DNA of 64,000 bases from Candidatus Omnitrophota bacterium (GTDB lineage: Bacteria > Omnitrophota > Gorgyraeia > 2-02-FULL-51-18): assembly GCA_016197155.1 (NCBI GenBank), contig JACPWF010000025.1, forward strand, positions 28,276 to 92,275. Reading direction: 5' to 3'. A program made the position numbers and the translations under genes. The notes under the pieces are model-generated. The model did no database searches. It worked only from the letters and a program-made list of their open reading frames with translations, and was not told where the DNA came from. This document shows, one piece after another, positions 13,555 through 33,248 of this stretch (positions are counted from its first letter, which is position 1; each line of letters opens with the position of its first letter).

Positions 13555-14421
13555 TTAAAAAAAATTTTTAGCCGTTTCCACCAGTTCTTCGGCGGAAAAA
13601 ACGTTTTCGGAGTCCGCGGCGGCCGCGGCGGCGGTCAATTCCAACCGATAAAACTCCGCCACGTTGTCGTTGTAAAATTTGAGGTTGTCGCGGAAGCGCT
13701 TGGCGATGACTTCCAGATTTGCCCAGACGGCGTCGATCGCGCACACCGCGAACGCGTCGCCGCCGTAGCGGCAAAGAACGTCGGATCGCCGAAAGGAAGT
13801 CTTTAAAATCTCGGCGGCGCGGGTCAAGGCCCGGCTACCCTCCTTGTAACCGAGGCCTTCGTTCATTTTGTTGAGATTGGCGACCTGAAAATGAAAGAAG
13901 AGATGCCCCTTTTTCGTGCGCGGTAAAAGTTTGAGCTGCTGCTCGGCCACGATCGAGAACCCTCTGCGGTTGTACAGGCCCGTGAGATCGTCGAGCAAAA
14001 GATTTTCGCACAGTTCCCGGTGAGCCCTGTTTCTCGCCACGGCGCGGCGCACCAGGCGCGCGATCCGCCCGGCGTCGCGCTCGGATTTGAAGAGACCGTC
14101 GTCGGCGCCGAAGCGAACGGCCTTTTCAATGAGAGGTTCCTCGGTCTCGCCGGCGAGAACGAGGATGGGGATGCCGCGCGCGCGGGAACGAAGCGAAAAA
14201 AAGGCGTCCATCCCCTTGGCCTCGGGCAGAGCCAAATCCACAAGTACCGCGTCCGCGCCGCCGCGCTTCAAAAATTCGAGGCCGTCCTTCAGCGAGCCGG
14301 TGTGCTCGAGACGACAGTCAGGGGCGTGTTTTTTAAAAATATCGTTTAGGAAAAGCGGGTAGTCGGGATCGGCCGTGATGAGAAAAACGCGGACCGATGG
14401 GTTTTCGTGAGCGGCGGACAT
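13555..14421 (-). CDS. response regulator: receiver domain + degenerate GGDEF domain
   Basis: Receiver (VLVDLALPE phospho-Asp context, ...LFKS). GGDEF domain starts DLTGLYNRRGF, but the signature reads RYGGDAF and the upstream metal-binding DxD is absent. Confidence 0.75.
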   Translation of the reverse strand: MSAAHENPSVRVFLITADPDYPLFLNDIFKKHAPDCRLEHTGSLKDGLEFLKRGGADAVLVDLALPEAKGMDAFFSLRSRARGIPILVLAGETEEPLIEKAVRFGADDGLFKSERDAGRIARLVRRAVARNRAHRELCENLLLDDLTGLYNRRGFSIVAEQQLKLLPRTKKGHLFFHFQVANLNKMNEGLGYKEGSRALTRAAEILKTSFRRSDVLCRYGGDAFAVCAIDAVWANLEVIAKRFRDNLKFYNDNVAEFYRLELTAAAAAADSENVFSAEELVETAKNFF

Positions 14422-19658: not shown

Positions 19659-20021
19659 TTAAGGCCGGTGTGAAAGCTTAAGCCGATCTGCCGCCAAAAT
19701 AAGGCTGTGATCGAGGGTCCATAATGAAGCTTCTGCAATCGCTGCCGAGGCCAACAAGTGGGCATCAATAAAACCGATCCCGAGATTATTGAGAGATTGA
19801 GCATCTATAAAATCAAGAATTTCTTCCTGAGTCACAAGGGGCGCGTGAGGAAGGGCCTTTAAAAGAGAGAGGATTTCTTTGCGATTTTTCAGGGATCCGC
19901 AGGCCAGCTCACCGATAACAAAATCGTGAGTGATCACCCGCCCCTCCGTCAAAAGCACGGACAATCGCCGATCCCCTTCCCTCAAATGGGCAACCCACAC
20001 GGACGTGTCAACCAGAACCAC
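19659..20021 (-). CDS. vapC: PIN-domain toxin, VapC family
   Basis: MVLVDTSVWVAHL... with the acidic residues of a PIN fold; 120 aa; 6 bp downstream of the vapB-like gene. Confidence 0.75.
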   Translation of the reverse strand: MVLVDTSVWVAHLREGDRRLSVLLTEGRVITHDFVIGELACGSLKNRKEILSLLKALPHAPLVTQEEILDFIDAQSLNNLGIGFIDAHLLASAAIAEASLWTLDHSLILAADRLKLSHRP

Positions 20022-20027
20022 TTTGGG

Positions 20028-20216
20028 CTAGTCTCTTCGACGGGGAATTCTGCGCAAAGATTTTTCCGTGCCCCCCAAGCGGGCCAGACGTTTTTCGCTT
20101 TCGAGAGTGATCAAGGCCTCGAGCCCCCGCCTCACCAAAGACGTCTTTTCCCGGATGCCGGTTAAGCGGGCGGCCTCATCCACAATGTGGTCATCGAGAT
20201 TGAGTGTTGTTCTCAT
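20028..20216 (-). CDS. vapB: VapB-family antitoxin (ribbon-helix-helix type)
   Basis: MRTTLNLDDHIVDEAARLTGIREKTSLVRRGLEALI; 62 aa; immediately upstream of vapC. Confidence 0.65.
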   Translation of the reverse strand: MRTTLNLDDHIVDEAARLTGIREKTSLVRRGLEALITLESEKRLARLGGTEKSLRRIPRRRD

Positions 20217-20280: not shown

Positions 20281-22098
20281 CTATTCCCTAAACTGCAGTT
20301 CGTACAGCCTCCGGTAGAGGCCGTTTTTGGCCAGAAGCTCCTCGTGACTGCCGGACTCGAGCACGCCCGCCTTATCGAGAACAAGAATCCGGCTGGCGTC
20401 CTTGACGGTCGAGAGCCGGTGCGCGATCACAAAAACCGTGCGGCCCTTCATGAGGTTGTGGATCGCCTCCTGAACCAAAAGCTCGCTCTCGGAGTCGAGC
20501 GCCGAGGTCGCCTCGTCCAAAATCAGAATCGGCGGATTTTTGAGGACGGCGCGCGCGATCGAGATCCGCTGGCGCTCGCCGCCCGACAGGCGAAAGCCGC
20601 GGTCGCCGACGACGGTTTGGTATTTGTGGGGAAGTTTCGAGATGAACGCGTGGGCGTTGGCGATCTCGGCGGCGCGCTCGACGTCTTTTTGCGGCGTGTG
20701 CGAGCGGCCGTAGGCGATATTCGCGGTGACGGTGTCATTGAATAAAACCGTTTCCTGCGTCACGACGCCGATCTGGTCGCGGAGCGACCGGAGGGTCACG
20801 TCCCGGACGTCCGTGCCGTCGATGCGGACCGCGCCCTTCCTCGGATCGTAAAAACGCGGGAGGAGATTCACGAGGCTCGTCTTCCCCACCCCGCTCGGCC
20901 CCACGATCGCGAGGATCTCGCCGGGGCGGACTTTGAAATCGATATTTTCCAAAATGAGTTTCTCGGTGTTATAGCCGAAGGAAATATTTTCAAAATGGAT
21001 TTCGTTCTTTAATGGCAAAAGGGCCTTCGCATTTTCTTTTTCCCGGATCTCATTCGGCATGTCGAGGATGTCAAAAATTCTTTCCGCCGCGGCCAGCGCG
21101 TGCTGGTTGATCCCGTGCACGCGCGAGAGGCGCTTGAAGGGCCTTAGCAGCGAAAAAAGCGCGACCAAAAATGCGATGAACGCCCCCGGCGACATCTGGC
21201 TTTCGATGACGGTCTTGCCGCCGATCCACAACACCACTCCCAAACAGACAAATCCGATGAACTCCGTGAGCGGGCTCACGAAAATCATCCGGCTGATCGA
21301 GAGCATCATCGTCCGGTAAAGCCCCTCGTTCTGCCGGCGGAAACGGTCGGTTTCGTATTTTTCCATTCCGAAACCCTGAACGATCCGGATGCCCGAGATG
21401 GATTCAAAGAGCGTCGAATTGATCTCGGCGACCTGCTCCTGGCTCGAGCGGCTGATTTTTTTGAGGAGCCTTCCCACGCGCAGGACGGGAAAAACGACTA
21501 ACGGCAATAAAATGAAGATCACGAACACGAGCGACCAGGGGATTCCAAAGATGAACTTGATCGACAAGAGCGCCACCAGATGCACCGCGATCTGAACGGG
21601 CTGAAACAAAAAATCGGTGAGGCCCTCGGAGATCGCGTCGCGGATGACGCCGGTGTCGTAGGTGATGCGTGACACGAGCGCCCCGGTCTGGGATTTTCCG
21701 AAAAAACTCAAGGGCAGTCCCACGATTTTTTCATAAAGCTCATTCCGCAGATCGCGGATCACGCGCTGGCTGGCGTCATTCATGAGGTACGACTGCCAGT
21801 ATTCGAAGAAGAGCCTGAAAAAGGCCAGGCCCACCGTCCACACGATCAGGATATTCAAAAGGTCCCAGCGCGACAGCGCGTTCACGCGGTAAACCAGGTC
21901 CACGAGGAACGCGGGCAGGCGGGTTTGATTGGGGATCGCGATCGGTTTGCCGGCCAGGATCGAATCTACGAACGGGATGATGAGCCCGATGATGGGCAGT
22001 CCCCCCAGAAGCGAATTCATCACCATCGCGCCAAAGGCCAGATACAGCCTCGCCGAATGGGGCTTCACAAAACTGATCATGCGTCTATAATGGCTCAC
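20281..22098 (-). CDS. ABC transporter permease/ATP-binding protein, MsbA-like (lipid A/lipid exporter family)
   Basis: 605 aa, six-TM N-terminal domain; Walker A GPSGVGKTS, LSGGERQR, ILILDEATSALD. Divergent from the Gfo/Idh/MocA oxidoreductase-lpxB gene pair. Confidence 0.85.
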   Translation of the reverse strand: MSHYRRMISFVKPHSARLYLAFGAMVMNSLLGGLPIIGLIIPFVDSILAGKPIAIPNQTRLPAFLVDLVYRVNALSRWDLLNILIVWTVGLAFFRLFFEYWQSYLMNDASQRVIRDLRNELYEKIVGLPLSFFGKSQTGALVSRITYDTGVIRDAISEGLTDFLFQPVQIAVHLVALLSIKFIFGIPWSLVFVIFILLPLVVFPVLRVGRLLKKISRSSQEQVAEINSTLFESISGIRIVQGFGMEKYETDRFRRQNEGLYRTMMLSISRMIFVSPLTEFIGFVCLGVVLWIGGKTVIESQMSPGAFIAFLVALFSLLRPFKRLSRVHGINQHALAAAERIFDILDMPNEIREKENAKALLPLKNEIHFENISFGYNTEKLILENIDFKVRPGEILAIVGPSGVGKTSLVNLLPRFYDPRKGAVRIDGTDVRDVTLRSLRDQIGVVTQETVLFNDTVTANIAYGRSHTPQKDVERAAEIANAHAFISKLPHKYQTVVGDRGFRLSGGERQRISIARAVLKNPPILILDEATSALDSESELLVQEAIHNLMKGRTVFVIAHRLSTVKDASRILVLDKAGVLESGSHEELLAKNGLYRRLYELQFRE

Positions 22099-22151
22099 AG
22101 TTTTCGCATCATAACATAGCCAACTCCCCTTGTCGATTCACCAGAAATCCC

Positions 22152-22264
22152 GGGGACTGTCCCTTTTTGCCCAAAAAGGGACAGTCCCCTCCTTTGTGAT
22201 GTCAGACAGCCCAACAAGCCTCCCCGGTCGCCGCGGCGACCACCCCTCCTTAAACAAGGAGGGG
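22152..22264. repeat. cluster of three perfect hairpins in a divergent intergenic region
   Basis: The hairpins are ggggactgtcccttttt-gccc-aaaaagggacagtcccc (17-bp stem, 22152-22189), ggtcgccgcggcgacc (22226-22241) and cccctcctt-aaaca-aggagggg (22243-22264). The arm motifs recur at 54837-54874. Confidence 0.6.
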
Positions 22265-22309
22265 AATGTTTCTTGTGGTGCCTGACACCATCGGTTAAAA
22301 TACTGCTCT

Positions 22310-23242
22310 ATGAATAGCCCCCTTAAAATTGCCGTAATTGGCGCGGGGAAATTGGGCGCGCGGCACGCCGAAGTCTATGCCAAACTGCCGGGTGTAACCC
22401 TCGTGGGCGTGTGCGACATCCTCGAATCACGCGCCAAAGAGGCGGCCCTCCATCACCGAACGCGGGCCTTCACGGACTACCGCGATCTCCTGGGGCAGGT
22501 GGACGCGGCCAGTATCGCCGTCCCCTCTCACAAACACTACGAGATCTCAAAGGAATTCCTCGAAAAAAACAGCCATCTCCTCATCGAGAAACCCATCACG
22601 ACGGACCTCGCGCACGCCGACGAACTGTTGATGCTCGCCCGCGAAAAAAATCTCACGATCCAGGTGGGCCACATCGAGCGGTACAACTCCGCGATCCGCA
22701 CGATCAAAAACATCATCAAGGTCCCCCGCTTCATCGAATGCCACCGCCTGGGTTCGTACGATCCGCGCGTGGCCGACGTGGGCGTCACGCTCGACCTCAT
22801 GATCCACGACATCGACATCGTCCTGGACCTCGTGCGTTCGCCGATCAAAAACGTGGACGCCGTGGGCGCTTTTATCCTGTCCAAGACCGAGGACATCGCC
22901 AACGCGCGCATCCGCTTCGCGAACAACTGCGTCGCGGATCTCACGGCCAGCCGCGTGACGCAGGACACGACGCGGAAAATCCGGATCTTTCAGGACGACG
23001 CTTACATTTCCCTCGACTACGTCACGCAGGAGGCGCTGATTTACAAAAAAGAAAACGGACGCATTGATTTTAAAAAAATTGACATTCAAAAATCGGATTC
23101 GCTGAAAGAGGAACTGGCGGATTTTATCGATTGCGTGCGCACCGGCAGACAGCCTTTGGTTTCCGGAGCGGAGGGGCGCGAGGCCCTGGCGCTGGCGCTC
23201 CAGATCTCAAAACAGATCCGCGAGCAATCTCATCCGGGCTAG
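22310..23242 (+). CDS. Gfo/Idh/MocA-family NAD(P)-dependent oxidoreductase (possible UDP-GlcNAc 3-dehydrogenase GnnA-like)
   Basis: Rossmann motif IAVIGAGKLGARHAEVYAKLPGVTLVGVCD and the EKP motif LLIEKPIT; 310 aa; stop 3 nt before the lpxB start. Confidence 0.75.
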   Translation: MNSPLKIAVIGAGKLGARHAEVYAKLPGVTLVGVCDILESRAKEAALHHRTRAFTDYRDLLGQVDAASIAVPSHKHYEISKEFLEKNSHLLIEKPITTDLAHADELLMLAREKNLTIQVGHIERYNSAIRTIKNIIKVPRFIECHRLGSYDPRVADVGVTLDLMIHDIDIVLDLVRSPIKNVDAVGAFILSKTEDIANARIRFANNCVADLTASRVTQDTTRKIRIFQDDAYISLDYVTQEALIYKKENGRIDFKKIDIQKSDSLKEELADFIDCVRTGRQPLVSGAEGREALALALQISKQIREQSHPG

Positions 23243-23245
23243 CCG

Positions 23246-24361
23246 ATGACGAAGAAAATATTCGTGATCGCGGGCGAGGCGTCGGGGGATCTGCACGGAG
23301 CCGCGCTCATCCGCGCGCTTCGCGAGGCCGGACGAGAGGGTGTTGAAATTTACGGCGTGGGGGGCGAGCGGATCCGCGAAACGGGGGCGCTCGAATTTTT
23401 TGACCTCGCCCGTTTTCACACGACAGGCTTTACCGAAGCGATCAAAAAACTGCCCCAGTACCGCCGGGCCGCGCGGGCCATTCTCTCCAACGTCGAAAAA
23501 GCCGAGCCCGACACGGTGGTCCTCATCGACAATCCCGGACTGAACCTGTATCTGGCCGAAAAAATCCACGCGCTCGGGATCCCCGTGGTTTACTACATCG
23601 CGCCCCAGGTCTGGGCCTGGGCACCCAAACGCGTTTTGAAAATAAAAAAATTTATCCGAAAAGTACTCGTGGTCTTTGAGTTTGAGAAAAAAATTTACGA
23701 GGAAAACGGCATCCCTGTCGCGTGGGTGGGACACCCGCTGAAAGACCGGATCGGCGCGCCCTCTCCCCCGCTCCCCCCGGGACTTCCGAAAGACGAGTGG
23801 CGCGTCTCGCTCCTGCCGGGATCGCGCGAGACAGAGGTCAAAACACTTCTGCCGATTCTCCTGGGCGCGGCCGAAATTCTCTCGGGAAAAAATCAGGCGC
23901 GGTTCTCGCTCATCCAGTCCCCCACTCTCCCGCGCGCGTTTTACGAGCCGTTCCTTTGGAAAAGCCGCTTGCGGATCGAGCTTGTGGAAAAAAACGCCTA
24001 CGACGCGATCGGCAAAAGCGATTTGGCTTTGGTGTGTTCGGGCACCGCCACGCTCGAGTGCGCGATCCTGGGGACGCCGATGATCATCACCAATAAGGGG
24101 AGCTTCCTCACGTATCTGGCGGCCAAATGCCTCATCCGCGTGCCGTGCCTTGGACTGCCGAATCTGATTTTGGGGGAGAAAAAAATTCCGGAGTTTCTGC
24201 AATACGACGCGACACCGGAGAAGATCGCCCGCGAGGCGGAGGAAATTTTAAGGAATGAGGAAAGGCGATCGGAAATGAAAAAGGCGCTTCAAAAAGTTTC
24301 CGAAAACTTGGGGGCCCCGGGCGCTTCCCGGCGCGCGGCGCTGGAAATTTTTAATTTATAA
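23246..24361 (+). CDS. lpxB: lipid-A-disaccharide synthase
   Basis: MTKKIFVIAGEASGDLHGAALIRAL... GT19 family pattern; 371 aa. Confidence 0.85.
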   Translation: MTKKIFVIAGEASGDLHGAALIRALREAGREGVEIYGVGGERIRETGALEFFDLARFHTTGFTEAIKKLPQYRRAARAILSNVEKAEPDTVVLIDNPGLNLYLAEKIHALGIPVVYYIAPQVWAWAPKRVLKIKKFIRKVLVVFEFEKKIYEENGIPVAWVGHPLKDRIGAPSPPLPPGLPKDEWRVSLLPGSRETEVKTLLPILLGAAEILSGKNQARFSLIQSPTLPRAFYEPFLWKSRLRIELVEKNAYDAIGKSDLALVCSGTATLECAILGTPMIITNKGSFLTYLAAKCLIRVPCLGLPNLILGEKKIPEFLQYDATPEKIAREAEEILRNEERRSEMKKALQKVSENLGAPGASRRAALEIFNL

Positions 24362-25696
24362 AACCGGCAAATATTTCTCGAGCTCGTAATTTGTGATCTC
24401 CGCGCAGGTCTTCGACCACTCGATCTTCTTATTTTCAATGAGCGAATGGAAGATGTGCTCGCCGAGCGCCTCTTTCAGGAACTTGCTCTCTTCGGCAATC
24501 GCGATCGCCTCGCCCAGGCTTTGAGGCAATAGCGCGATCCCGCGCTTTTTTCTTTCGGGGTCCGACATCTCATGCACGTTTTCCTCGACGGGATCCGCGA
24601 GGTCCCAACCGTGCCTGATGCCCTCGAGACCCGCCGCCAGCATCACGGAAAAAACCAGGTACGGATTGCACGCCGCGTCGGGCGAGCGCAGTTCCGCTCG
24701 GGTGCCGTTTTCGTTGCCGGGCCGGTAGGCCGGGACCCGCACGAGAGCCGAACGGTTCTTTTTCGCCCACAACACGTAAACCGGCGCCTCATAACCGGGA
24801 GTGAGACGTTTGTAGGAGTTCACCCATTGATTCGTGACGATGCAGATCTCGGGCGCGTATTTGAGGAGCCCCGCGATGTAGTGCTTGGCGAGTTTTGAAA
24901 GGTGGTTCTTGTCGTTTTTGTCAAAAAAGGCGTTTTTGTCTCCCTCAAATAAAGACTGGTGAACGTGCATGCCGCTGCCGTTTTCGTTTTTGAGGGGCTT
25001 GGGCATGAACGTCGCGTAAACGCCGTTCTTCATCGCGATCTCTTTCACGACCAGGCGATAGGTCATCGCGTTGTCGGCCATCGTGAGCGCGTCGGTGTAG
25101 CGCAGATCGATCTCGTGCTGGCTGGGAGCGACCTCATGGTGGCTCGACTCGACGCCGATGCCCATTTCTTCCAAAGTCAAAACCGTTTCGCGGCGCAGGT
25201 CACTGCCCGCGTCCAGGGACGTGAGGTCAAAATAACCGCCCTGGTCGAGGGGTTTGGTTCCTTGCGAATCCTGAAAATAAAAATACTCGATCTCCGGCCC
25301 CACGTAAAACGTGTAGCCCATCTCCGAGGCCTTTTTCACATGCCGCTTCAAACACTGGCGCGGATCGCCCACAAACGGCGCGCCGCTCACACTGCGGATG
25401 TCCGCGAACATGCGCGCGACGGCGTTTTCGCGCGGCCGCCACGGCAGGATCTGAAAAGTCTCCGGATCCGGAAACGCCCGCATGTCCGATTCGTCGCTCC
25501 GCGCGAAACCCTCGATGGAGGAACCGTCAAAACCCTTGCCCTCTTCCATCGCTTCTTTTAATTCATCGATCGTGATCGCGAAACTTTTTAAGAACCCCAG
25601 AATATCCGGAAACCACAGCCGGATAAACCGCACGTTGTTATCGGCGGCCTTTTTCAACACAAACTCTTTACTTTGTTTGTCGGGACTTTTCCGCAT
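24356..25696 (-). CDS. glnA: glutamine synthetase, type I
   Basis: GS beta-grasp and catalytic motifs (GPEIEYFYF, MHVHQSLF, NPYLVFSVMLAAGLEG); 446 aa. Confidence 0.9.
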   Translation of the reverse strand: MRKSPDKQSKEFVLKKAADNNVRFIRLWFPDILGFLKSFAITIDELKEAMEEGKGFDGSSIEGFARSDESDMRAFPDPETFQILPWRPRENAVARMFADIRSVSGAPFVGDPRQCLKRHVKKASEMGYTFYVGPEIEYFYFQDSQGTKPLDQGGYFDLTSLDAGSDLRRETVLTLEEMGIGVESSHHEVAPSQHEIDLRYTDALTMADNAMTYRLVVKEIAMKNGVYATFMPKPLKNENGSGMHVHQSLFEGDKNAFFDKNDKNHLSKLAKHYIAGLLKYAPEICIVTNQWVNSYKRLTPGYEAPVYVLWAKKNRSALVRVPAYRPGNENGTRAELRSPDAACNPYLVFSVMLAAGLEGIRHGWDLADPVEENVHEMSDPERKKRGIALLPQSLGEAIAIAEESKFLKEALGEHIFHSLIENKKIEWSKTCAEITNYELEKYLPVL

Positions 25697-25700
25697 TTTT

Positions 25701-26387
25701 TTAATCTTCCTCAGAGGTGAATTTGTAACCGATGTTCCTCACCGTTTCGATAAACGTGGAGGACTTGCCCTCGATCTTGGCCCGCAGGCGCCGGATGTGC
25801 ACGTCCACGGTGCGCGTCCCGCCGTAATATTCGTACCCCCACACTTTGTTCAGAAGCACCTCGCGCGTGAAAACCGTGCCGGGATGCCCGCATAAAAATT
25901 TGAGCAGTTCAAATTCGGTGAAGGTGAGATCGATCTTTTTATCCCCCACCCTCACCTCGTATTTGGCGATGTCGATGGTGATCCGGCCGCGCTGGATCAG
26001 ATTTTTCTGATCCACCTTGTGGATCCGCTTAAAGAGAAGCTGGACCCGCGCCAGCGCCTCGGCCAGGCGAAGCGGCCGGTACAGCACTTCCTGAATCCCC
26101 GACGGCAGATCGGCCGATTTCATCTCACTTTCGTCCATGAGGAGAATAATGGGCGTGTCCTCGATCTGCGGCTCTTTTTTCAGGCTGTAATAAAAATCCA
26201 TGCATTCGACATAACTGTTTTTGGGATTGAGGACGACCAGGTCCGGCTCCTTATCGGCCACAGTGTTCAGGGATAAGCCGTTCCGGGAAACGAGTTGCGC
26301 CGTGAAATGCGTCTCTTTTTTGAGCGCGTCCCTCAGCTCGAAGCCGTTTTTATTTTGATCCCCGATAATTAAAATACTGCCGACCAT
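25701..26387 (-). CDS. OmpR/PhoB-family DNA-binding response regulator with atypical receiver domain
   Basis: C-terminal winged helix (LTFTEFELLKFLCGHPGTVFTREVLLNKVWGYEYYGGTRTVDVHIRRLRAKI). In the receiver the phospho-acceptor Asp is Asn (DLVVLNPKN) and the conserved Lys is Arg (LYRP). Confidence 0.7.
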   Translation of the reverse strand: MVGSILIIGDQNKNGFELRDALKKETHFTAQLVSRNGLSLNTVADKEPDLVVLNPKNSYVECMDFYYSLKKEPQIEDTPIILLMDESEMKSADLPSGIQEVLYRPLRLAEALARVQLLFKRIHKVDQKNLIQRGRITIDIAKYEVRVGDKKIDLTFTEFELLKFLCGHPGTVFTREVLLNKVWGYEYYGGTRTVDVHIRRLRAKIEGKSSTFIETVRNIGYKFTSEED

Positions 26388-26388
26388 T

Positions 26389-27219
26389 TTATAACCCCAC
26401 GATTGTCATGTTTTCGCGATCGGCCTTTTCGATGAGTCTTTCCTTAAAAAGCATGATCGTCTTCCCGGCCTCGACGCCGAGCACCCGCGACGAGACGCCT
26501 TTGAGCGCGTCCAGCGTCGCCTCCCCGACACACGGCAGATCAAAGCGCAGGTCCTGATTGGGTTTTGAAACCTTCACGACGACGACCCCGCCCTGGCCCA
26601 GCTCGCCGCCGCGGCGGATGGTCTCATTGGTCCCTTCGAGCCCCTCGACGGCGAGCGCCACGCCGTGCTTGACCGCCACGGTTTGGCCGATGTCCATTTT
26701 GCCGATTCCCTTGGCCACTTTCCAGCCAAATCTCAAATCCCTCCACTCGCCCTCGGACGGTGCGCGGCGCGTCAAAACCCCCTTCGGGGCCAGCGTCTCC
26801 TTCAGAAAAAACCGCGAGTCCACCACCGACACGCCGCACTTGGCCTTCAAAAAAATCTGAAACGCCCTGAGCAAATGGTCGTCGCCCTTATTGGCCGCCC
26901 CGCCGATCAGGCCCCTGGCGGCCTCATCCATCCGCGTGCCGGGATTGTAAATTTCCTTTTTGGGGATGCCTCCCGCAAAGACGACCTCTCTCACCCGCGA
27001 AGCCTGAAGGAGCTCCACCAACCTCCCGAGCGATCCGAGCTCCACGTAATGGGCCTCGCGCACAAACCGGTCGAGACGCCTGTCCGTCAATCCTTCGACG
27101 CCAAAGGCGATCACGTCCCTTTTTAAGGAAAGGGCGGCCTGGGCGAATAAAAGGGGAAACTCACCCTGGCCCGCAATGAGCCCGATAACCTCCGAGGGAT
27201 TTGACCGGCGCCACCACAC
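26389..27219 (-). CDS. lpxI: UDP-2,3-diacylglucosamine diphosphatase LpxI (DUF1009 family)
   Basis: GVLTRRAPSEGEWRDLRFGWKVAKGIGKMDIGQTVAVKHGVALAVEGLEGTNETIRRGGELG...VVVKVSKPNQDLRFDLP closely matches Caulobacter LpxI. Located lpxA-adjacent as in alpha-proteobacteria. Confidence 0.8.
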   Translation of the reverse strand: MWWRRSNPSEVIGLIAGQGEFPLLFAQAALSLKRDVIAFGVEGLTDRRLDRFVREAHYVELGSLGRLVELLQASRVREVVFAGGIPKKEIYNPGTRMDEAARGLIGGAANKGDDHLLRAFQIFLKAKCGVSVVDSRFFLKETLAPKGVLTRRAPSEGEWRDLRFGWKVAKGIGKMDIGQTVAVKHGVALAVEGLEGTNETIRRGGELGQGGVVVVKVSKPNQDLRFDLPCVGEATLDALKGVSSRVLGVEAGKTIMLFKERLIEKADRENMTIVGL

Positions 27220-27222
27220 GCG

Positions 27223-28020
27223 TCACTCCTCCCCGGTCTCGACGGCGCCGGCGCGGCAGATGCCTCTCTTGGAATTTTCGATAAAAGAAAGAATGTGCCG
27301 GATATTTTCGTTGTCTTTAAACTCGGTTTGAACTTTTTTAACCGCCCTGGCAAGATTCGATTTCGAGGCAAACAGGGTTTTGAGCGCCTTTTTAATTTTA
27401 AAAATTTCCTCCGCCTTAAAACCGGCGCGTTTCAGGCCGATCGCGTTGACACCGTAGAAACTCGCCGGGTGGCCGTCACAAACCGAAAAGGGCGGGATGT
27501 CCATCACGGCCTTCGACAGGCCGCCGATCATCGCGAATTTTCCGATCCGGACGAACTGGTGAACGCCCACCAGGCCGCTGATCACCGCGTGGTCCTCCAC
27601 GGCCACGTGGCCGGCGAGCACCGTGTTGTTGGACATCGTGATCTCATTCCCCAAAACGCACTCGTGCGCCACGTGACAGCCGATCATGATAAAATTTTTG
27701 TTCCCGATCACCGTCGGCGCGTGCGGAGAATGGCCGCCGTTCACGGTGACATGCTCGCGGAAAATATTGTCGTCCCCGACGACCAGGACCGAACGCTCCT
27801 CTTTCATTTTTTTGTCCTGAGAGAGCGTCCCCAGGCACGCGCCGTGGCCAATCCGGCAGCGCGCGCCGATCCGCGTCGCGCCCTCGACCACGACGTGACC
27901 GCCGATCCGTGTCCCTTCGCCGATTTTCACCTCCGGGCCGATCACCGAATAAGGCCCGATCTCGACGCCGGGGGCGATTTCGGCCTTTTCCGATACGATC
28001 GCCGTCGGGTGAATGCTCAT
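27223..28020 (-). CDS. lpxA: acyl-ACP--UDP-N-acetylglucosamine O-acyltransferase
   Basis: Left-handed beta-helix hexapeptide repeats; MSIHPTAIVSEKAEIAPGVEIGPYSVIG. ATGA overlap with the lpxC/fabZ stop. Confidence 0.85.
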   Translation of the reverse strand: MSIHPTAIVSEKAEIAPGVEIGPYSVIGPEVKIGEGTRIGGHVVVEGATRIGARCRIGHGACLGTLSQDKKMKEERSVLVVGDDNIFREHVTVNGGHSPHAPTVIGNKNFIMIGCHVAHECVLGNEITMSNNTVLAGHVAVEDHAVISGLVGVHQFVRIGKFAMIGGLSKAVMDIPPFSVCDGHPASFYGVNAIGLKRAGFKAEEIFKIKKALKTLFASKSNLARAVKKVQTEFKDNENIRHILSFIENSKRGICRAGAVETGEE

Positions 28021-29309
28021 TCGCCGCCCATGCTGAACATGATTTCCGCGTCGCACACCTCTTCACCATTCACCTTGGCCACGCCTTTGATGAGGCCGAC
28101 GCGGGATTTCACTTTCAAAATCTCCACTTCCAGGCGAAGCGCGTCGCCGGGCCTCACCATCTTGCGGAAGCGGGCGCTGTTCACCGACACCAGATACGCC
28201 ATTTTTCCCCGGTTTTCCGGTTTGGAAAGAATGAGAACGCCGCCCGTTTGGGCCAGTGCTTCGATCATGAGCACCCCGGGCATGATGGGTTTCCCGGGAA
28301 AATGGCCTTTGAAATGGGGCTCGTCCGCGCGCACGTCTTTGACGCCCACGATGAAGTGGTCGTTCATCTCCAGGATCCGGTCCACCATCAGAAAAGGGTG
28401 CCGGTGCGGCAAAATTTTCATGATCGCTTCGGAATCCATCAACGCCGACTTCGGCCGGGAATGTGCCATCTGCAGTTCCTTTCTCTGTTTTTGGATCGCC
28501 TCAATCAGCGCCCGGTTCAGGGAATGGCCGCTTCGCAAACCCACCACGCGGCCCGCGACCGAAAACTCCAAAAGGTTCATGTCCCCCAAAATATCCAGCA
28601 CCTTGTGCCGCGCGCATTCGTCGGGAAAGCGAAGGGTATTTTGGACAACCCCCTTTTCGGAAATAACGAGCGTGTTCTCGTGCGTGGCGCCCAAACCAAA
28701 ACCCTGTTTTTGCAGGACGCGCGCCTCCTCGTCCGTGCAGAACGTGCGCGCCGGCGCGATCTGGGATTCAAACGTCTCGGGCGTCAGCGTGAAATCCACC
28801 TTCTGGTCCCGGAGAGAGGCCATGGGATAATCGAGCGTGTAGGCCACGCTGAATTCCCCGGCGGGATAGATCGCCAGGGCCTTGCCCGGTTCGTGACAAA
28901 AAATCGGCGATTGAATTTGAAAAGTCTCGCGCGTCTCGGCCTGCTCGACGATCCCCAGATTTTTTATCCATTTCACAAACGGCAGGGCGCTCCCGTCCAT
29001 GCCGGGAATCTCGGGCCCGTCCACCTCGATGCGCAGATTGGAAATTCCCAGACCAAAAAGCGCGGCCAGGAGATGCTCCACTGTTTTGATATTCAATTCT
29101 TCGGAGACAATGGAGGTACAGCGAAGGCTCTCTTCGGCCGGTGCGGCCGGTGCGCGGCCGTTCGTTTCGGAAGAACCGGGTACTTGAGAAAAACGGATCC
29201 CGTGTCCGGCGGGCGCGGGCCGAAGCGTCACCTTCACGCGCGCGCCGGTATGAAGACCGACGCCTTCGAGCGAGCCTTGGCGAATGATCGTTTTCTGCCG
29301 GCTAACCAT
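28017..29309 (-). CDS. lpxC/fabZ: bifunctional UDP-3-O-acyl-GlcNAc deacetylase / 3-hydroxyacyl-ACP dehydratase (LpxC-FabZ fusion)
   Basis: N-terminal LpxC (GVGLHTGARVKVTLRPA..., HKVLDILGD). C-terminal FabZ hot-dog (ILPHRHPFLMVDRILE..., GHFPGKPIMPGVLMIEALAQ); 430 aa. Confidence 0.85.
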   Translation of the reverse strand: MVSRQKTIIRQGSLEGVGLHTGARVKVTLRPAPAGHGIRFSQVPGSSETNGRAPAAPAEESLRCTSIVSEELNIKTVEHLLAALFGLGISNLRIEVDGPEIPGMDGSALPFVKWIKNLGIVEQAETRETFQIQSPIFCHEPGKALAIYPAGEFSVAYTLDYPMASLRDQKVDFTLTPETFESQIAPARTFCTDEEARVLQKQGFGLGATHENTLVISEKGVVQNTLRFPDECARHKVLDILGDMNLLEFSVAGRVVGLRSGHSLNRALIEAIQKQRKELQMAHSRPKSALMDSEAIMKILPHRHPFLMVDRILEMNDHFIVGVKDVRADEPHFKGHFPGKPIMPGVLMIEALAQTGGVLILSKPENRGKMAYLVSVNSARFRKMVRPGDALRLEVEILKVKSRVGLIKGVAKVNGEEVCDAEIMFSMGGE

Positions 29310-30375
29310 TTTCTTTTAATGGAACCGGCGATTTTTTCTTTAAATCCAAAATTTCCTTGAAGAGCTCGGGAAGCCGCGCGGTCGCCGCGAGAATTCTTTT
29401 TTGCTCGGATATCGGGCGCGCGGGTTCGCCGAGGAGCACGCTGTTGTCCGGAGCGGATTTGGTGACGCCGCTCCGCGCGCCCACGACCACCCGGTCGCCG
29501 AGCGTGATGTGCCCGACCAGCCCCGCCTGTCCGGCGATCACGACATTTTTCCCGAGTTGGGTCGAACCCGAGATCCCCGCCTGCGAGACGATGAGCGCAT
29601 TTTCCCCCACGACCACGTTGTGCGCGATCTGCACGAGATTGTCGATTTTTGAGCCTTTTTTGATCCAGGTTTTTTGGAAACGGCCGCGGTCCACGCACGT
29701 GTTGGCGCCGATCTCGACGTCATCTTCGATCACGACGGAACCGATCTGCGGGATCTTCACGTGCTCGTCCCCGACCGTCTCGTAGCCAAAACCGTCACTG
29801 CCGATCACGACCCCGCTGTGAAGGATCACGTTGTCGCCGATCAGGGTTTCCTCGCGGATGGACACCTGAGGATAGATGGTCGCGTTCCGGCCGATGCGGG
29901 TGTTGCGTCCGATATAAACCTGCGTGCCGATCGATCCCCCGTCGCCGATTTCAACCCCCTCTTCGATCACCGCGTGCGGGCCGACGGCGACGCCTTTTCC
30001 CAATTTTACGCCCTTTTCAATGACGGCCGTGCGGTGGACCCCCTTGGCCTTCGCCGATTTCCCCGAGGAGGCAAAAAAATCGACCACTTGGGTGAAAGCC
30101 CGTGAAGGGTTTTGCGTGCGGATAAGCGGTTTTTGTGAAGAGTGGATATCGCGGGAAGTAATGACCGCCGCGGCGCGGGTCTGGTCTAAAAATGGCAGGT
30201 ACTTCGAATTGGATAGAAACGTGACTTCGTTTTCTTGGGCTTCTTTTATTCCCGCGACACCGGTGACGACGAGCCCGGGATCGCCGATGAGCTCTCCCCC
30301 TACAAGTTTCGCGATGTCTTGTAGCTTTAGGCTTTTCCGGTCTCCCCTATTTTTTCTTTGCGGTGTAGGAGTCAT
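29302..30375 (-). CDS. lpxD: UDP-3-O-(3-hydroxyacyl)glucosamine N-acyltransferase
   Basis: N-terminal LpxD domain (LQDIAKLVGGELIGD) followed by long hexapeptide-repeat beta-helix. Start codon uncertain (ORF start overlaps skp by 29 nt). Confidence 0.85.
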   Translation of the reverse strand: MTPTPQRKNRGDRKSLKLQDIAKLVGGELIGDPGLVVTGVAGIKEAQENEVTFLSNSKYLPFLDQTRAAAVITSRDIHSSQKPLIRTQNPSRAFTQVVDFFASSGKSAKAKGVHRTAVIEKGVKLGKGVAVGPHAVIEEGVEIGDGGSIGTQVYIGRNTRIGRNATIYPQVSIREETLIGDNVILHSGVVIGSDGFGYETVGDEHVKIPQIGSVVIEDDVEIGANTCVDRGRFQKTWIKKGSKIDNLVQIAHNVVVGENALIVSQAGISGSTQLGKNVVIAGQAGLVGHITLGDRVVVGARSGVTKSAPDNSVLLGEPARPISEQKRILAATARLPELFKEILDLKKKSPVPLKENG

Positions 30376-30874
30376 TCAAAACCTTGATCACCTGCGGCGT
30401 CAGGTCGTTCCCTTCGCTCTTGTAAACCAGCACGCGGTCGTTGAAAATAAATGAATAACCCTGGGATTTGCCGAAGCCGTCTATCACGGTCTCGATCTCT
30501 TTCAAAATGTCCCGGACGATCCCGTCTCTCTCTTTCCGGAGCGCGTCGCGTGTGGCGCGGTCAAACTCCTGAAGTGATTTGATCCTCTCGTCGATGACCG
30601 CCTGTTTTTCGTCCTTGGCCTTCGCGGATAGAAGCTCGGCCTCGTCGCGCAGTTTTTTGATCTCGCTCACCATCTTGTCCCGATCGCCCTGCTTCGCCGT
30701 CCCTTTCGCTTCGAGTGACTTGTCGAAATCTTTCGTTTTCAGGTATTCGTCGAAAACCCTCGCCAGGTCCACGTAACCGATCTTGAGTTCCTGAGCGAAA
30801 GCGGACGGGACCTGCGACAGGCCCATCGCGGCGAAGACAAACACGGCCGAGGCGAATGACACGATCTTTTTCAT
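30347..30874 (-). CDS. skp: periplasmic chaperone Skp/OmpH
   Basis: Signal peptide, coiled-coil K/E-rich 175-aa protein in canonical position between bamA and lpxD. Confidence 0.75.
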   Translation of the reverse strand: MKKIVSFASAVFVFAAMGLSQVPSAFAQELKIGYVDLARVFDEYLKTKDFDKSLEAKGTAKQGDRDKMVSEIKKLRDEAELLSAKAKDEKQAVIDERIKSLQEFDRATRDALRKERDGIVRDILKEIETVIDGFGKSQGYSFIFNDRVLVYKSEGNDLTPQVIKVLNDSYTAKKK

Positions 30875-30890
30875 TTCTAATGCTCCTTTT

Positions 30891-33200
30891 TTAAAATCCC
30901 TGACTGATATTAAAATAAAATCTCAATTTTTTCTTGTCGTTCTCCACGTCATCGAGCGGGTAACCCGCGTCGAGCCGAACGGGGCCGATCGGAGTCTTGA
31001 TCAGCACCCCCATGCCGATCCCCGAGACCACGCCGCCCGATCCAAAATTCTGGACTTGATCAAACACGTTGCCCGTGTCAAAAAACACCGCGCCCTTGAT
31101 CAGATCCGGATAGATCGGAAAACTTTCTTCGACGTTGGCGATCCAGTATCCCTCGCCGCCGGTGGGCTCGAGATTCCCGGTGTCGCGCGGACCCACGCGG
31201 CGCTCGCGGTAGCCGCGGATCGTGTTGGCGCCGCCCGCGTAAAACCGCTCGTAGATCGGCACGCGCGGAGAGCCTGAAATTTCATCAACGATGCCCCCAC
31301 GGAGTTTGAGCTCCAGAACCATGTCCCAGAAATTTTCAAAGTACGTGCTGCCAATGCCGGAGAGACGGTAAAAATCCTTGTCACCGGCAAGCGGTCCCCC
31401 GGCCAATTCCGCCGTGCCGGAAAGGAGGTACCCGGTGGTTGGGTTGTACACATTGTCCCGCTGGTCGTGGCTGAGCGTCAGCGCGAGGCTGGACGTGGTG
31501 TTTTTTCCCTCTTCATCCTTCAGGGCCTGCGAGGCGCTGGTGGGGATGTCGGAAATTTTCACCTGCTCGAGCTTGTACACCGCCAGTCCCTTGTCATACT
31601 CGCTAAACTCTTTTCCCAGCCGGATATCACCGCCGGTTTTCTGCTGGTCAAAGAAATAACCCGCGGTCCCGGAACGGTTAAATTCCTTTCGGTAAAGGTC
31701 AAAGCCCAGAGAATAGGGGTGGCCAAACGCCCACGGCTCGGTGAAACTGAGCTCCGCGTTCTGCCGGACACTGCCGAGCTCAAACCGCAGGCCAAAATCC
31801 TGCCCCGCGCCGGTGAATGTCTTCCAATTCTGCCAGTCAAAGTTTTTCTGCCGGATCTGCGCGAATCCCACCACCGCGTCCACCGAGCTGTACCCGCCGC
31901 CGAAGCTGAACTCGCCGGTCTTGGCCTCTTTGACCGATACGAGGAGGTCACGCGCGTTCGGCAGGGGACCCGGTTCGGTGTCAAAACGCACGTCGTCAAA
32001 AAATCCCAGATTGTAAAGGCGTTCCTTGGAGCGCTTGAGCTTGGCGCCGCTGAAGGATTCGCCCGGATAGGCGCGTAGTTCGCGGCGGATCACGATGTCC
32101 TTGGTTTTGGTGTTGCCCTGGATCTTCACCTTTCCGACGTAGGTGAGCTCGTTCTCCACAATCGTGTAGGTCAGATCCACGCGGTCGGTGGTTTCGTTGT
32201 AGACGGATTCGGAACGGATCTGCGAGGACAGATACCCTTTCTCGAAATAAAGGTCCTGAATATTCCCCACGTCTATCCGGAGTCCCCGGCGGGAAAAGGG
32301 TTTTTGGCTGGTCATCTTGACGGCCTTTAAAATGTCCGCCGAAGAAAGGATGGCGTTTCCCTTTAATTCAATGCCGCCGACGATGTATTTTTTTCCTTCC
32401 TTCACGATGACTTTCAAAATAATGTCGCCGCTGCCTTTGACCGGTTCGGTCTCGGTGGTCACCTCCACGTCGCTGTAGCCGGCCTCGTCGTAAAGCGCTT
32501 TCACGCGCTCAACGTCCTCGAGGAGGTCATCTTCCTTTAAGTAACCGGAATGGAAAAACCCCCACCAGGAAAGCATCTTGGTTTTCATCACTTTCCGGAT
32601 CTGGCCCGAGTCGATCGCGTGATTGCCCTCGACGCGGATGTCGCGGATGCGGACATTGACTCCCTCGTCCACGAGTACCTTCAAAACCGCCTGGTTGGTG
32701 TCGGGATTCACCTCGAGCGCGCTGTCGACGCGCGCGCCCGAAAAACCCTTCTTTTCGTAAAGCGCCCGCACGGCCTCGAGGTCGTCGTGGACCCTTTTCT
32801 GGTCCACAAAATCGCCGATCACCGACTGCATTTCCTTTTTGATCTGCTCTTTGTTCAGCTTGTGATTGCCTTCGATGGCGATTTTGGAGAGAACGGGTTT
32901 TTCGACGACGAGGAAAACGACCTTCACCCCGCCCTCAAAATCCTCCTGCTCGATGCGCACGTCCGTGAAAAATCCCAGGCCATAAAGCCGCTTCAGATCT
33001 TCATTGAGCACGGTCGAAGACAGGGGCTGGCCGATCTGGGTTTTGACCTTCGCGAGAACCGTGAGCGAGGAGACGGTTTTATTGCCTCTCACGTCGACGG
33101 CCTTGACAACCTTGGCGGCGTCTTCGGCGCGGAGGAAGGACGGAAAAGAGAAATAAAAGCCCAAAAGAAGGACGGATAAAAAAAGAATTTTGCGGGTCAT
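30891..33200 (-). CDS. bamA: outer membrane protein assembly factor BamA
   Basis: 769 aa: signal peptide, repeated POTRA domains, C-terminal Omp85 barrel ending ...YFNISQGF. Confidence 0.85.
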   Translation of the reverse strand: MTRKILFLSVLLLGFYFSFPSFLRAEDAAKVVKAVDVRGNKTVSSLTVLAKVKTQIGQPLSSTVLNEDLKRLYGLGFFTDVRIEQEDFEGGVKVVFLVVEKPVLSKIAIEGNHKLNKEQIKKEMQSVIGDFVDQKRVHDDLEAVRALYEKKGFSGARVDSALEVNPDTNQAVLKVLVDEGVNVRIRDIRVEGNHAIDSGQIRKVMKTKMLSWWGFFHSGYLKEDDLLEDVERVKALYDEAGYSDVEVTTETEPVKGSGDIILKVIVKEGKKYIVGGIELKGNAILSSADILKAVKMTSQKPFSRRGLRIDVGNIQDLYFEKGYLSSQIRSESVYNETTDRVDLTYTIVENELTYVGKVKIQGNTKTKDIVIRRELRAYPGESFSGAKLKRSKERLYNLGFFDDVRFDTEPGPLPNARDLLVSVKEAKTGEFSFGGGYSSVDAVVGFAQIRQKNFDWQNWKTFTGAGQDFGLRFELGSVRQNAELSFTEPWAFGHPYSLGFDLYRKEFNRSGTAGYFFDQQKTGGDIRLGKEFSEYDKGLAVYKLEQVKISDIPTSASQALKDEEGKNTTSSLALTLSHDQRDNVYNPTTGYLLSGTAELAGGPLAGDKDFYRLSGIGSTYFENFWDMVLELKLRGGIVDEISGSPRVPIYERFYAGGANTIRGYRERRVGPRDTGNLEPTGGEGYWIANVEESFPIYPDLIKGAVFFDTGNVFDQVQNFGSGGVVSGIGMGVLIKTPIGPVRLDAGYPLDDVENDKKKLRFYFNISQGF

Positions 33201-33248
33201 GATGAAGGTTTACTTTAACACAGCCGGTTTAATTAATAAATTAAAATT

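What the first reader, a model, noticed from the sequence alone, without database searches (positions are those of the whole stretch)
25701..26387. OmpR-family regulator with Asp-to-Asn phospho-site next to glnA
Seen: the receiver has DLVVLN where the phospho-accepting Asp should be, and Arg instead of the conserved Lys. The winged-helix DNA-binding domain is canonical. The gene sits 4 nt downstream of glnA on the same strand.

Established parallel: orphan, phosphorylation-independent OmpR-type regulators (for example GlnR of actinomycetes, HP1043) control nitrogen or essential genes.

Inference: a phosphorylation-independent nitrogen regulator co-transcribed with glutamine synthetase.
Basis: partly seen in the sequence, partly recalled or inferred. 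Interest (0 to 1): 0.5.

Follow-up and report, generated by a model that had tools for sequence, protein, structure and literature searches.

The report
Asp-less GlnR-like nitrogen regulator
Next to the glutamine synthetase gene of an uncultured Omnitrophota bacterium sits a transcription factor that can no longer be switched by phosphorylation and looks like a distant cousin of GlnR, the nitrogen master regulator of actinobacteria; it extends a known kind of regulator to new phyla rather than revealing a new mechanism.

Summary
Window 25701-26387 (minus strand) encodes a 228-aa OmpR/PhoB-type regulator with a normal winged-helix domain. Four of its five receiver catalytic residues are replaced: G9, N54, M84 and R104. 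N54 is invariant in 120 close homologs. One correction: the gene lies 4 nt upstream (5') of glnA, not downstream, and 1 nt after lpxI.

No histidine kinase was found in the 64 kb window. The closest solved relatives by sequence are actinobacterial GlnR structures, and all four base-contacting GlnR residues are identical here.

In about 30 Omnitrophota loci and 4 of 5 Dehalococcoidia loci the ortholog directly precedes glnA or amtB-glnK(-glnA). The amtB/glnK promoters in those loci carry TTnAC-n6-GAAAC-n6-GTAAC, followed 9-10 nt later by a -10 hexamer. These are the half-sites and spacing of the GlnR box.

Caveats:
- The window itself has no amtB or glnK and no such site, so the local DNA target is unknown.
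- Orthology with GlnR is unresolved (bootstrap 20-37%).
- The nitrogen signal input is unknown.

Verdict: a phosphorylation-independent, GlnR-like nitrogen regulator co-expressed with glutamine synthetase. It is a new variant of a known kind, of moderate interest.

The parts
25701..26387 (-). Gene for the 228-aa atypical OmpR/PhoB-type regulator (ATG at 26387-26385, TAA at 25703-25701)
   Evidence: ORF list. 100% identical to an NCBI Omnitrophica MAG protein, with 120 homologs at 76-84% identity.
26022..26387 (-). Pseudo-receiver domain (residues 1-122), with the (beta-alpha)5 fold kept and the catalytic quintet lost
   Evidence: AlphaFold2 gives pLDDT 80-90 with b1-a1...b5-a5 in canonical order. 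Pfam Response_reg scores 20.4 bits, below the 30.2 cut-off. Key residues.
26226..26228 (-). Codon of Asn54 at the phospho-acceptor position (end of strand beta-3). It is followed by invariant Pro55 and by Lys56 (117 of 120).
   Evidence: Sequence. Alignments with canonical receivers. N in 120 of 120 homologs.
26076..26078 (-). Codon of Arg104, replacing the conserved receiver Lys (end of strand beta-5)
25719..25940 (-). Winged-helix DNA-binding domain (residues 150-223)
   Evidence: Pfam Trans_reg_C, E = 1.6e-27. Best PDB sequence matches are GlnR entries 8HIH, 8HIG and 8HML.
25782..25814 (-). Recognition helix R192-R202 (RTVDVHIRRLR). It carries the four residues equivalent to the base contacts R186, V190, R193 and R194 of GlnR.
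   Evidence: Residue mapping onto contacts described in PMC10235972. All four are invariant in 120 homologs.
25697..25700 (-). 4-nt spacer between the regulator stop codon and the glnA ATG. GAGGA at 25712-25708, inside the regulator's last codons, serves as a likely ribosome-binding site.
   Evidence: Sequence.
24356..25696 (-). glnA, type I glutamine synthetase (446 aa), immediately downstream of the regulator
   Evidence: Pfam Gln-synt_N and Gln-synt_C. TIGR00653 scores 498 bits, above the 429 cut-off.
26389..27219 (-). lpxI, whose stop codon lies 1 nt before the regulator ATG. It is the last gene of the run bamA-skp-lpxD-lpxC/fabZ-lpxA-lpxI.
   Evidence: Pfam LpxI_N and LpxI_C. Synteny conserved in all Omnitrophota loci examined.

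Best explanation
The gene encodes an orphan OmpR/PhoB-type transcription factor with a pseudo-receiver domain. It works like actinobacterial GlnR.

Shown here:
- The receiver fold is kept, but the acidic pair, the phospho-Asp, the Thr and the Lys are replaced by G9-D10, N54, M84 and R104. These replacements are fixed by selection.
- No kinase gene is nearby.
- The DNA-binding domain keeps every base-contacting residue of GlnR.
- Relatives in Omnitrophota and Dehalococcoidia sit directly upstream of ammonium-assimilation genes.
- The amtB/glnK promoters in those loci carry three direct repeats with an 11-bp period (TTnAC-n6-GAAAC-n6-GTAAC), ending 9-10 nt before a TAnnnT -10 hexamer.

Inferred:
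- The protein forms phosphorylation-independent dimers or higher oligomers.
- It binds these repeats head-to-tail across the -35 region and recruits RNA polymerase, as PhoB and GlnR do. This would switch on ammonium uptake and assimilation.
- In this genome amtB-glnK are absent from the locus. The regulator is translationally coupled between lpxI and glnA, so it is co-expressed with glutamine synthetase. Its DNA targets lie outside the 64 kb window.

The nitrogen signal input is unknown. The most likely options are control by protein level, or a ligand or partner (PII, glutamine synthetase) binding the conserved remodelled pocket.
For: - Pocket residues: alignment with about 43 canonical regulators; HMMER alignment to PleD D53; N54 120/120, R104 119/120, G9 120/120, M84 107/120.
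- Fold.
- No kinase: and the gene content of related loci.
- GlnR relationship: (8HIH 117 bits, 8HIG 116, 8HML 105; next best 93, next DBD-only chain 79). Identity of these entries from PMC10235972. Contact residues.
- Synteny. Among Omnitrophota-type loci, 18 have the regulator directly before glnA, 10 have regulator-amtB/PII-glnA, and 2 more have amtB-PII downstream.
- Dehalococcoidia: L031 regulator-glnA; L033 regulator-asnB-amtB-PII-glnA; L034 and L035 regulator-amtB-PII.
- Distant lineages.
- Motif. Exact GAAAC-N6-GTAAC occurs 7 times in 0.98 Mb of loci, and 6 of these lie in the roughly 100-250-nt spacer just after the regulator gene. Sites not used to build the matrix were found in L002 (second site), L025 (weaker, 15.7), L033, L034, L035, L083 and L085. 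Fourteen aligned sites have the -10 hexamer 9-10 nt downstream.
- Strong constraint: the regulator is 73-82% identical among species in which lpxI is 51-66% identical. The receiver is 69% and the DNA-binding domain 88% identical within the clade.
Against: - No binding site of this type is in the window. There are 0 matches with up to 1 mismatch against 2.9 expected, and the best matrix score of 9.1 is within the shuffle range.
- No amtB or glnK is in the window.
- In relatives, the PII-to-glnA spacers carry no such box, so glnA itself may not be a direct target.
- The receiver shares only 22-28% identity with the other nitrogen-linked clades, the same as with canonical receivers.
- It does not match Pfam GlnR_1st.
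- The DNA-binding-domain tree does not resolve a GlnR clade (20-37% bootstrap).
- The recognition-helix residues are, from my own knowledge of the PhoB sequence, also shared with PhoB. They therefore do not by themselves fix specificity.
- One close relative (L024) and one distant one (P0125) have no nitrogen genes next to them.
- There are no experimental data.
Confidence: 0.6

Rival explanations
1. The regulator controls the lipid A and outer-membrane biogenesis cluster in which it is embedded. The link to nitrogen genes would then be secondary.
For: The lpxI-regulator junction (gaps of 1-20 nt) is kept in every Omnitrophota locus. This includes L024 and L082, where no nitrogen gene follows the regulator. 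glnA itself lies inside the lpx cluster, convergent with lpxB.
Against: Dehalococcoidia relatives have no lpx genes in the fetched flanks, yet are still followed by glnA or amtB-PII. The repeat motif appears only before amtB/glnK and nowhere in the lpx genes of 30 loci or of the window.
Confidence: 0.1
2. The protein is still regulated by covalent modification. This could be phosphorylation on another residue (Ser/Thr, or a neighbouring Asp such as D10 or D85) or acetylation, as proposed for Streptomyces GlnR. It would then not be signal-independent.
For: The loops around the former active site are nearly invariant: GDQNKxG, NPKxxY, MDESEMKxADLPSG and YRPLR. That argues for a functional surface. 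Ser/Thr phosphorylation and Lys acetylation are reported for GlnR (PMC12632262; PMC10704036).
Against: No kinase of any type was seen next to the gene in any locus. The phospho-site residue varies freely between the nitrogen-linked clades (N, S, D, E, A, Q), which suggests no chemistry at that position.
Confidence: 0.15
3. It is a PhoB/PhoP-type phosphate regulator, as some database names say, that happens to lie next to glnA.
For: The best NCBIfam profile is PhoB at 138 bits. JGI and NCBI name some homologs PhoB or PhoP.
Against: The PhoB score is far below that model's cut-off of 296 bits. The catalytic residues needed by PhoB are absent. No pst or pho genes or PhoR are in the window or the related loci. 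The gene context is ammonium assimilation in two phyla.
Confidence: 0.03
4. It is a decaying relic of a response regulator with no function.
For: The receiver falls below the Pfam threshold.
Against: The reading frame is intact. There are 120 homologs at 76-84% identity, with invariant substituted residues. It is more conserved than the flanking lpx genes. The receiver fold is modelled with confidence.
Confidence: 0.02

Closest known systems
GlnR of actinobacteria (orphan atypical OmpR/PhoB regulator of nitrogen metabolism; PDB 8HIH, 8HIG, 8HML)
   Same: - It is the best solved-structure match by sequence.
- It is an orphan regulator with a degenerate phosphorylation pocket.
- The base-contacting residues R186, V190, R193 and R194 are identical, as are 11 of 12 phosphate contacts.
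- It shares the target genes amtB, glnK and glnA.
- The predicted sites use the half-sites GTAAC and GAAAC with 6-nt spacers, and the last site lies between the -35 and -10 positions, as in the GlnR activation complex.
- A basic residue sits two positions after the phospho-site (K56 here, Arg-52 in GlnR).
   Different: - GlnR keeps the Asp (D50/D48), which is needed for dimer formation and function. Here it is Asn.
- The receiver domains are not detectably related beyond the common fold. There is no PF21695 hit, and the GlnR matches do not cover the first 73-77 residues of the protein.
- The host phylum is different.
- The gene is embedded in a lipid A operon and abuts glnA.
- Orthology is unresolved.
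RitR of streptococci and other aspartate-less receiver (ALR) or pseudo-receiver regulators (HP1043/HsrA, ChxR, CosR)
   Same: These are OmpR-type regulators that lack a phosphorylatable pocket. RitR has Asn at the phospho-site (my recollection; the RitR paper was not read here). RitR is the top Foldseek hit, and HP1043, CosR and FrzS are also in the list. Pseudo-receivers make up several percent of all receivers, and Lys-to-Arg is a common change in them (PMC12632262).
   Different: RitR senses redox state through a Cys and controls iron uptake. HP1043 and ChxR control other regulons. None of them is linked to nitrogen genes. Sequence similarity to them is lower than to GlnR.
PleD second receiver-like (adaptor) domain
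   Same: It has the same substitution pattern, DLVIVN ... AMVD ... SRP, aligned with DLVVLN ... LLMD ... YRP here. It is among the best matches to the receiver part alone. From my own knowledge, that domain is not phosphorylated and serves in dimerisation.
   Different: It belongs to a diguanylate cyclase, not to a DNA-binding protein. The similarity is weak (14.6 bits for that stretch).
PhoB (canonical OmpR/PhoB activator)
   Same: It has the same domain order and, from my own knowledge of the PhoB sequence, the same recognition-helix motif RTVDVHIRRLR. Its promoter layout is also the same: direct repeats with an 11-bp period ending about 10 nt upstream of the -10 hexamer and replacing the -35 element (my knowledge of pho boxes).
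   Different: PhoB needs phosphorylation of Asp53 by PhoR. This protein lacks the catalytic residues and has no kinase. The NCBIfam PhoB score of 138 bits is far below the 296-bit cut-off.

Membership tests
OmpR/PhoB-type response regulators | C-terminal winged-helix Trans_reg_C domain | tested here: met
   PF00486, 95.8 bits against a cut-off of 26.2, covering the full profile.
OmpR/PhoB-type response regulators | N-terminal receiver domain with the (beta-alpha)5 fold | tested here: met
   The AlphaFold2 model has five strand-helix units with pLDDT 80-90. Foldseek matches response regulators. The Pfam score of 20.4 bits is below the 30.2 cut-off, so it is not met by that sequence criterion.
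OmpR/PhoB-type response regulators | Catalytic quintet (two acidic residues, phospho-Asp, Thr/Ser, Lys) | tested here: not met
   The residues are G9-D10, N54, M84 and R104, in the columns where about 43 canonical relatives have [DE]D, D, [TS] and K.
OmpR/PhoB-type response regulators | Cognate histidine kinase, usually adjacent | tested here: not met
   None in the 64 kb window. None next to the gene in more than 30 related loci. The rest of the genome was not available.
Pseudo-receiver / aspartate-less receiver (ALR) regulators | Receiver fold without the phospho-acceptor Asp | tested here: met
   N54 is at the end of strand beta-3. It is invariant in 120 homologs.
Actinobacterial GlnR | DNA-binding domain with GlnR's base-contacting residues (R186, V190, R193, R194) | tested here: met
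   They map to R192, V196, R199 and R200, all identical. GlnR entries are the top PDB sequence hits.
Actinobacterial GlnR | Conserved, unphosphorylated Asp (D50/D48) needed for dimerisation and function | tested here: not met
   Asn54 occupies that position. The requirement for Asp in GlnR is from PMC10704036.
Actinobacterial GlnR | GlnR-type N-terminal domain (Pfam PF21695, GlnR_1st) | tested here: not met
   No hit at E up to 10 for residues 1-125. Only a distant relative, P0133, has a faint hit.
Actinobacterial GlnR | GlnR boxes (gTnAc-n6-GaAAc) at the promoters of amtB, glnA and other nitrogen genes | tested here: inconclusive
   Boxes of this form are present before amtB/glnK next to orthologs in Omnitrophota and Dehalococcoidia. 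They are absent from this window and from the PII-to-glnA spacers.
Actinobacterial GlnR | Common descent with GlnR (orthology) | tested here: inconclusive
   In the neighbour-joining tree of the DNA-binding domain, all degenerate-pocket regulators, GlnR included, fall on one side and all canonical ones on the other. Bootstrap support is only 20-37%.
Actinobacterial GlnR | Binding to DNA and a transcriptional response to nitrogen limitation | not testable with these tools
   This requires EMSA or footprinting and expression data.

The most novel reading that the evidence does not exclude
The remodelled, strictly conserved pocket of the pseudo-receiver (GDQNK, NPK, MDESEM, YRP) is itself the nitrogen sensor. 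It would bind a metabolite such as 2-oxoglutarate or glutamine, or dock glutamine synthetase or PII. In this reading the translationally coupled regulator-glnA pair forms a kinase-free nitrogen-sensing circuit. Because the pair sits inside the lipid A operon, the circuit would tie envelope synthesis to nitrogen supply. A corollary is that GlnR-type control is an ancient system spanning several phyla, not an actinobacterial invention.
Probability: 0.15. Interest if true: 0.7.

Novelty: new variant of a known kind. Interest (0 to 1): 0.42.

Why it matters
GlnR-type control of nitrogen assimilation is described in the literature I searched only for actinobacteria. How GlnR senses nitrogen is still unsettled.

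This finding points to a family that shares GlnR's DNA-contact residues, GlnR-box-like sites and the same target operon. It occurs in two unrelated, mostly uncultured phyla (Omnitrophota, and Dehalococcoidia of Chloroflexota).

This clade has dispensed even with the Asp that GlnR needs. It therefore gives a natural test of which receiver features matter for phosphorylation-independent activation. It also gives a concrete, testable regulon prediction for organisms with no genetics.

It also corrects routine annotations of these proteins as PhoB or PhoP.

Tried and rejected
- I searched the window for the repeat motif by pattern and by position weight matrix. Nothing scored above chance.
- I searched the window for amtB and P-II. 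Neither is present.
- I scanned the metagenome collection for the full 20-base promoter pattern to enlarge the regulon. There were only 3 hits. One is another regulator-amtB-PII-glnA locus and two look like chance matches in AT-rich DNA.
- Rfam scans for a glutamine riboswitch or other RNA near glnA found only three tRNAs in the window and nothing in six related loci.
- The sigma-70 promoter and terminator scan of 23800-34000 gave counts at chance level. The only minus-strand promoter-like site lies upstream of bamA.
- Foldseek on the whole model was of limited use because the DNA-binding domain was modelled poorly, with pLDDT below 50.
- Cluster names of distant relatives were uninformative.
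- The literature search for nitrogen regulators of Dehalococcoides, or for GlnR in Chloroflexi, found nothing relevant.
- The paper on the GlnR receiver structure (PMC4140898) is not held.
- A first bootstrap tree run timed out. The rerun gave low deep support.
- Weak minus-strand matrix hits at the regulator's 3' end (L001, L013, L015) were rejected. I judged them by-products of the conserved GYKF coding sequence.

Full report
**What is there**

The ORF 25701-26387 lies on the minus strand and encodes 228 aa. It is 100% identical to a protein of a Candidatus Omnitrophica MAG. It has 120 listed homologs at 76-84% identity, nearly all 226-228 aa long. For 119 of the 120, the precomputed Pfam hit is the C-terminal Trans_reg_C domain only.

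In the window protein Trans_reg_C scores 95.8 bits over the full profile. The N-terminal half matches Response_reg over profile positions 1-110, but at only 20.4 bits against a cut-off of 30.2.

**The receiver residues**

I aligned the regulators from 79 fetched loci. About 43 canonical OmpR-type proteins show [DE]D, D, [TS] and K. The window protein has G9-D10, N54, M84 and R104 in exactly those columns. HMMER independently aligns N54 with the phospho-acceptor Asp53 of PleD.

Among the 120 close homologs the counts are G9 120/120, N54 120/120, M84 107/120 (the rest I, L or V) and R104 119/120. AlphaFold2 models residues 1-122 as a regular (beta-alpha)5 receiver with pLDDT 80-90. N54, M84 and R104 sit at the C-terminal ends of strands 3, 4 and 5.

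Four of the five catalytic residues are gone, not two.

**Gene order**

Both genes are on the minus strand. The regulator's TAA stop is at 25703-25701 and the glnA ATG at 25696-25694. The regulator is therefore upstream of glnA with a 4-nt spacer. GAGGA inside its last codons is placed to serve as the glnA ribosome-binding site.

The regulator's own ATG follows the lpxI stop codon by 1 nt. The minus-strand run bamA-skp-lpxD-lpxC/fabZ-lpxA-lpxI-regulator-glnA is packed with gaps of 16 nt or less, or with overlaps. lpxB, a Gfo/Idh/MocA oxidoreductase and msbA lie beyond glnA.

**Is it an orphan?**

- A motif scan of all ORFs of at least 100 aa found no H-box or G2-box protein.
- Pfam scans of 37 large ORFs found only housekeeping genes: purine synthesis, SHMT, FtsH, ClpX, GlmU, DnaB, SerRS, EF-Ts, ribosomal proteins and others.
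- The same scans found one REC-GGDEF protein at 13555-14421 and no histidine kinase.
- None of the related loci has a kinase next to the gene.

**Relatives and context**

All 30 Omnitrophota loci from the species-representative genomes keep lpxI-regulator. This includes three loci at only 45% identity. A further lineage at 48% identity (P0121) has lpxI-regulator-glnA-lpxB-gfo-msbA.

What follows the regulator in the Omnitrophota-type loci:

| Gene(s) after the regulator | Loci |
|---|---|
| glnA directly | 18, window included |
| amtB and one or two P-II genes, then glnA | 10 |
| amtB-P-II, no glnA seen | 2 |
| exbB/exbD-like pair, then glnA | 1 |
| Unrelated genes | 2 (L024, L082) |

Dehalococcoidia regulators have 57-65% identity in the DNA-binding domain. 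Four of the five loci show the same link, with no lpx genes in the fetched flanks:

- L031: regulator-glnA.
- L033: regulator-asnB-amtB-PII-glnA.
- L034: regulator-amtB-PII-amtB-PII.
- L035: regulator-amtB.

The fifth locus (L032) shows no nitrogen gene in the fetched flank. A 47%-identical metagenomic relative (P0124) also precedes amtB.

This cross-phylum link argues for nitrogen control and against control of the lipid A genes.

**A conserved cis-element**

The spacer between the regulator and amtB or P-II carries an aligned block. It reads TTnAC-n6-GAAAC-n6-GTAAC, followed after 9-10 nt by TATACT-like hexamers.

Exact GAAAC-N6-GTAAC occurs 7 times in 0.98 Mb of loci. Six of these lie in that spacer, on the coding strand. 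About 2 matches would be expected by chance in all that sequence.

Sites not used to build the matrix:

- A second site between P-II and amtB in L002.
- A weaker site (score 15.7) just after the regulator in L025, close to the contig end and with no -10 hexamer found.
- L033, L034 and L035 of Dehalococcoidia, for example GTAAC-n6-GAAAT-n6-GTAAC-n10-TAGACT.
- L083.
- L085, which came from a blind scan of the metagenome collection.

**Comparison with GlnR**

- 8HIH is the M. tuberculosis GlnR transcription activation complex and 8HML the S. erythraea GlnR DNA-binding domain on DNA.
- 8HIH, 8HML and 8HIG are the three best solved-structure matches, at 117, 116 and 105 bits. The next full-length chain scores 93 bits and the next DNA-binding domain 79 bits.
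- The published GlnR box is gTnAc-n6-GaAAc. The paper attributes selectivity for GTAAC to R186, V190, R193 and R194. It places the last protomer downstream of the -35 element.
- These four residues map to R192, V196, R199 and R200 here. Eleven of twelve phosphate contacts are also identical, and all are invariant in the family.
- The half-sites, spacing, promoter position and target operon therefore all match GlnR.

**Limits**

- The window has no amtB or P-II and no such site.
- The PII-to-glnA spacers of relatives carry hairpins with a TAGAAT-like hexamer but no box.
- The well-supported target is therefore amtB/glnK. Here glnA is a co-transcribed neighbour rather than a shown target.
- The receiver shares only 22-28% identity with the other nitrogen-linked clades, no more than with canonical receivers. 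It does not hit the Pfam GlnR_1st model.
- The phospho-site residue differs between the nitrogen-linked clades: N, S, D, E, A and Q.
- A neighbour-joining tree of the DNA-binding domain puts all degenerate-pocket regulators, GlnR included, apart from all canonical ones. Bootstrap support is only 20-37%, so orthology with GlnR is open.
- From my own knowledge, the recognition helix is also shared with PhoB.

**Wider picture**

HMMER read 1.84 billion representative proteins with this query. Of the best 150 representatives, nearly all lack the canonical pocket and only two show DD-D-T-K. The protein therefore belongs to a large radiation of atypical OmpR-type regulators.

Pseudo-receivers are a known and common class, and Lys-to-Arg is a typical change in them (PMC12632262). 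Foldseek lists RitR, GlnR, HP1043, CosR and FrzS among the matches.

In GlnR the retained Asp is needed for dimer formation through contacts with Arg-52 and Thr-9, and D48A abolishes function (PMC10704036). Here the Asp is Asn, and Lys56 (117 of 120 homologs) sits at the same +2 position as Arg-52. That is the main point of difference from GlnR.

**Verdict**

This is a phosphorylation-independent, GlnR-like nitrogen regulator co-expressed with glutamine synthetase. It is a new variant of a known kind, of moderate interest.

Noticed in passing
window 20281-33200: glnA and the regulator are embedded in the lipid A and outer-membrane cluster bamA-skp-lpxD-lpxC/fabZ-lpxA-lpxI | regulator-glnA | lpxB-gfo-msbA. 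The glnA and lpxB ends overlap convergently by 6 nt. The arrangement is kept in more than 30 Omnitrophota loci. Why a nitrogen module sits inside this cluster is unexplained.
   Followed up: partly
L002 10880-11010; L005 10720-10900; L013 10629-10815; L021 10496-10600; L022 10453-10575; L023 5453-5640: The spacer between P-II and glnA carries a GC-rich hairpin with a TAGAAT- or TACAAT-like hexamer in or near its loop, 25-60 nt before glnA. It could be a terminator for amtB-glnK combined with a separate glnA promoter. It matches no Rfam family.
   Followed up: partly
representative proteins P0121-P0270: Nearly all of the 150 closest cluster representatives in 1.84 billion proteins lack the canonical receiver pocket. 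The phospho-site residue is D in 89 rows, E in 20, N in 12 and S in 6 (tally over about 150 aligned rows, which include the window protein and 10 locus anchors). This is a large, mostly unnamed radiation of atypical OmpR-type regulators. At least one (P0125) sits next to an ECF sigma/anti-sigma pair rather than nitrogen genes.
   Followed up: partly
window 28017-29309 (-): lpxC and fabZ are fused into one 430-aa ORF (LpxC plus a FabA-like domain). In several related loci the tblastn match splits into two segments, so the fusion may not be universal.
   Followed up: no
window 13555-14421 (-): A REC-GGDEF protein (PleD-like) is the only other receiver domain found in the window. No kinase is next to it either.
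   Followed up: no
window 19659-20216 (-): Two small overlapping ORFs of 120 and 62 aa lie between rpsB and msbA. By eye they read like a PIN-domain toxin with a small antitoxin. This was not checked against any profile.
   Followed up: no
window 60529-63987 (-): A 1152-aa ORF whose only Pfam hits are fructose-1,6-bisphosphatase domains within residues about 100-355. The remaining 800 or so residues are unannotated.
   Followed up: no
L012 8681-8865; L020 8672-8840: In these two loci the regulator-glnA spacer is enlarged to 168-184 nt by inserted palindromic or repeated elements, for example GTCATTGCGAGGAACGAAGTGACGAAGCAATCC in L020.
   Followed up: no
window 25890-25892 (codon of Cys166): A single Cys in the DNA-binding domain (LKFLCGHPG) is kept in 119 of 120 homologs. 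RitR, the top structural match, is (from my recollection of that work) a Cys-based redox sensor, though its Cys lies elsewhere.
   Followed up: no
window 9715-10950, 11155-12426, 12572-13462, 42622-43707 (all -): Four ORFs of 296-423 aa have no Pfam hit at E of 1e-5 or better.
   Followed up: no
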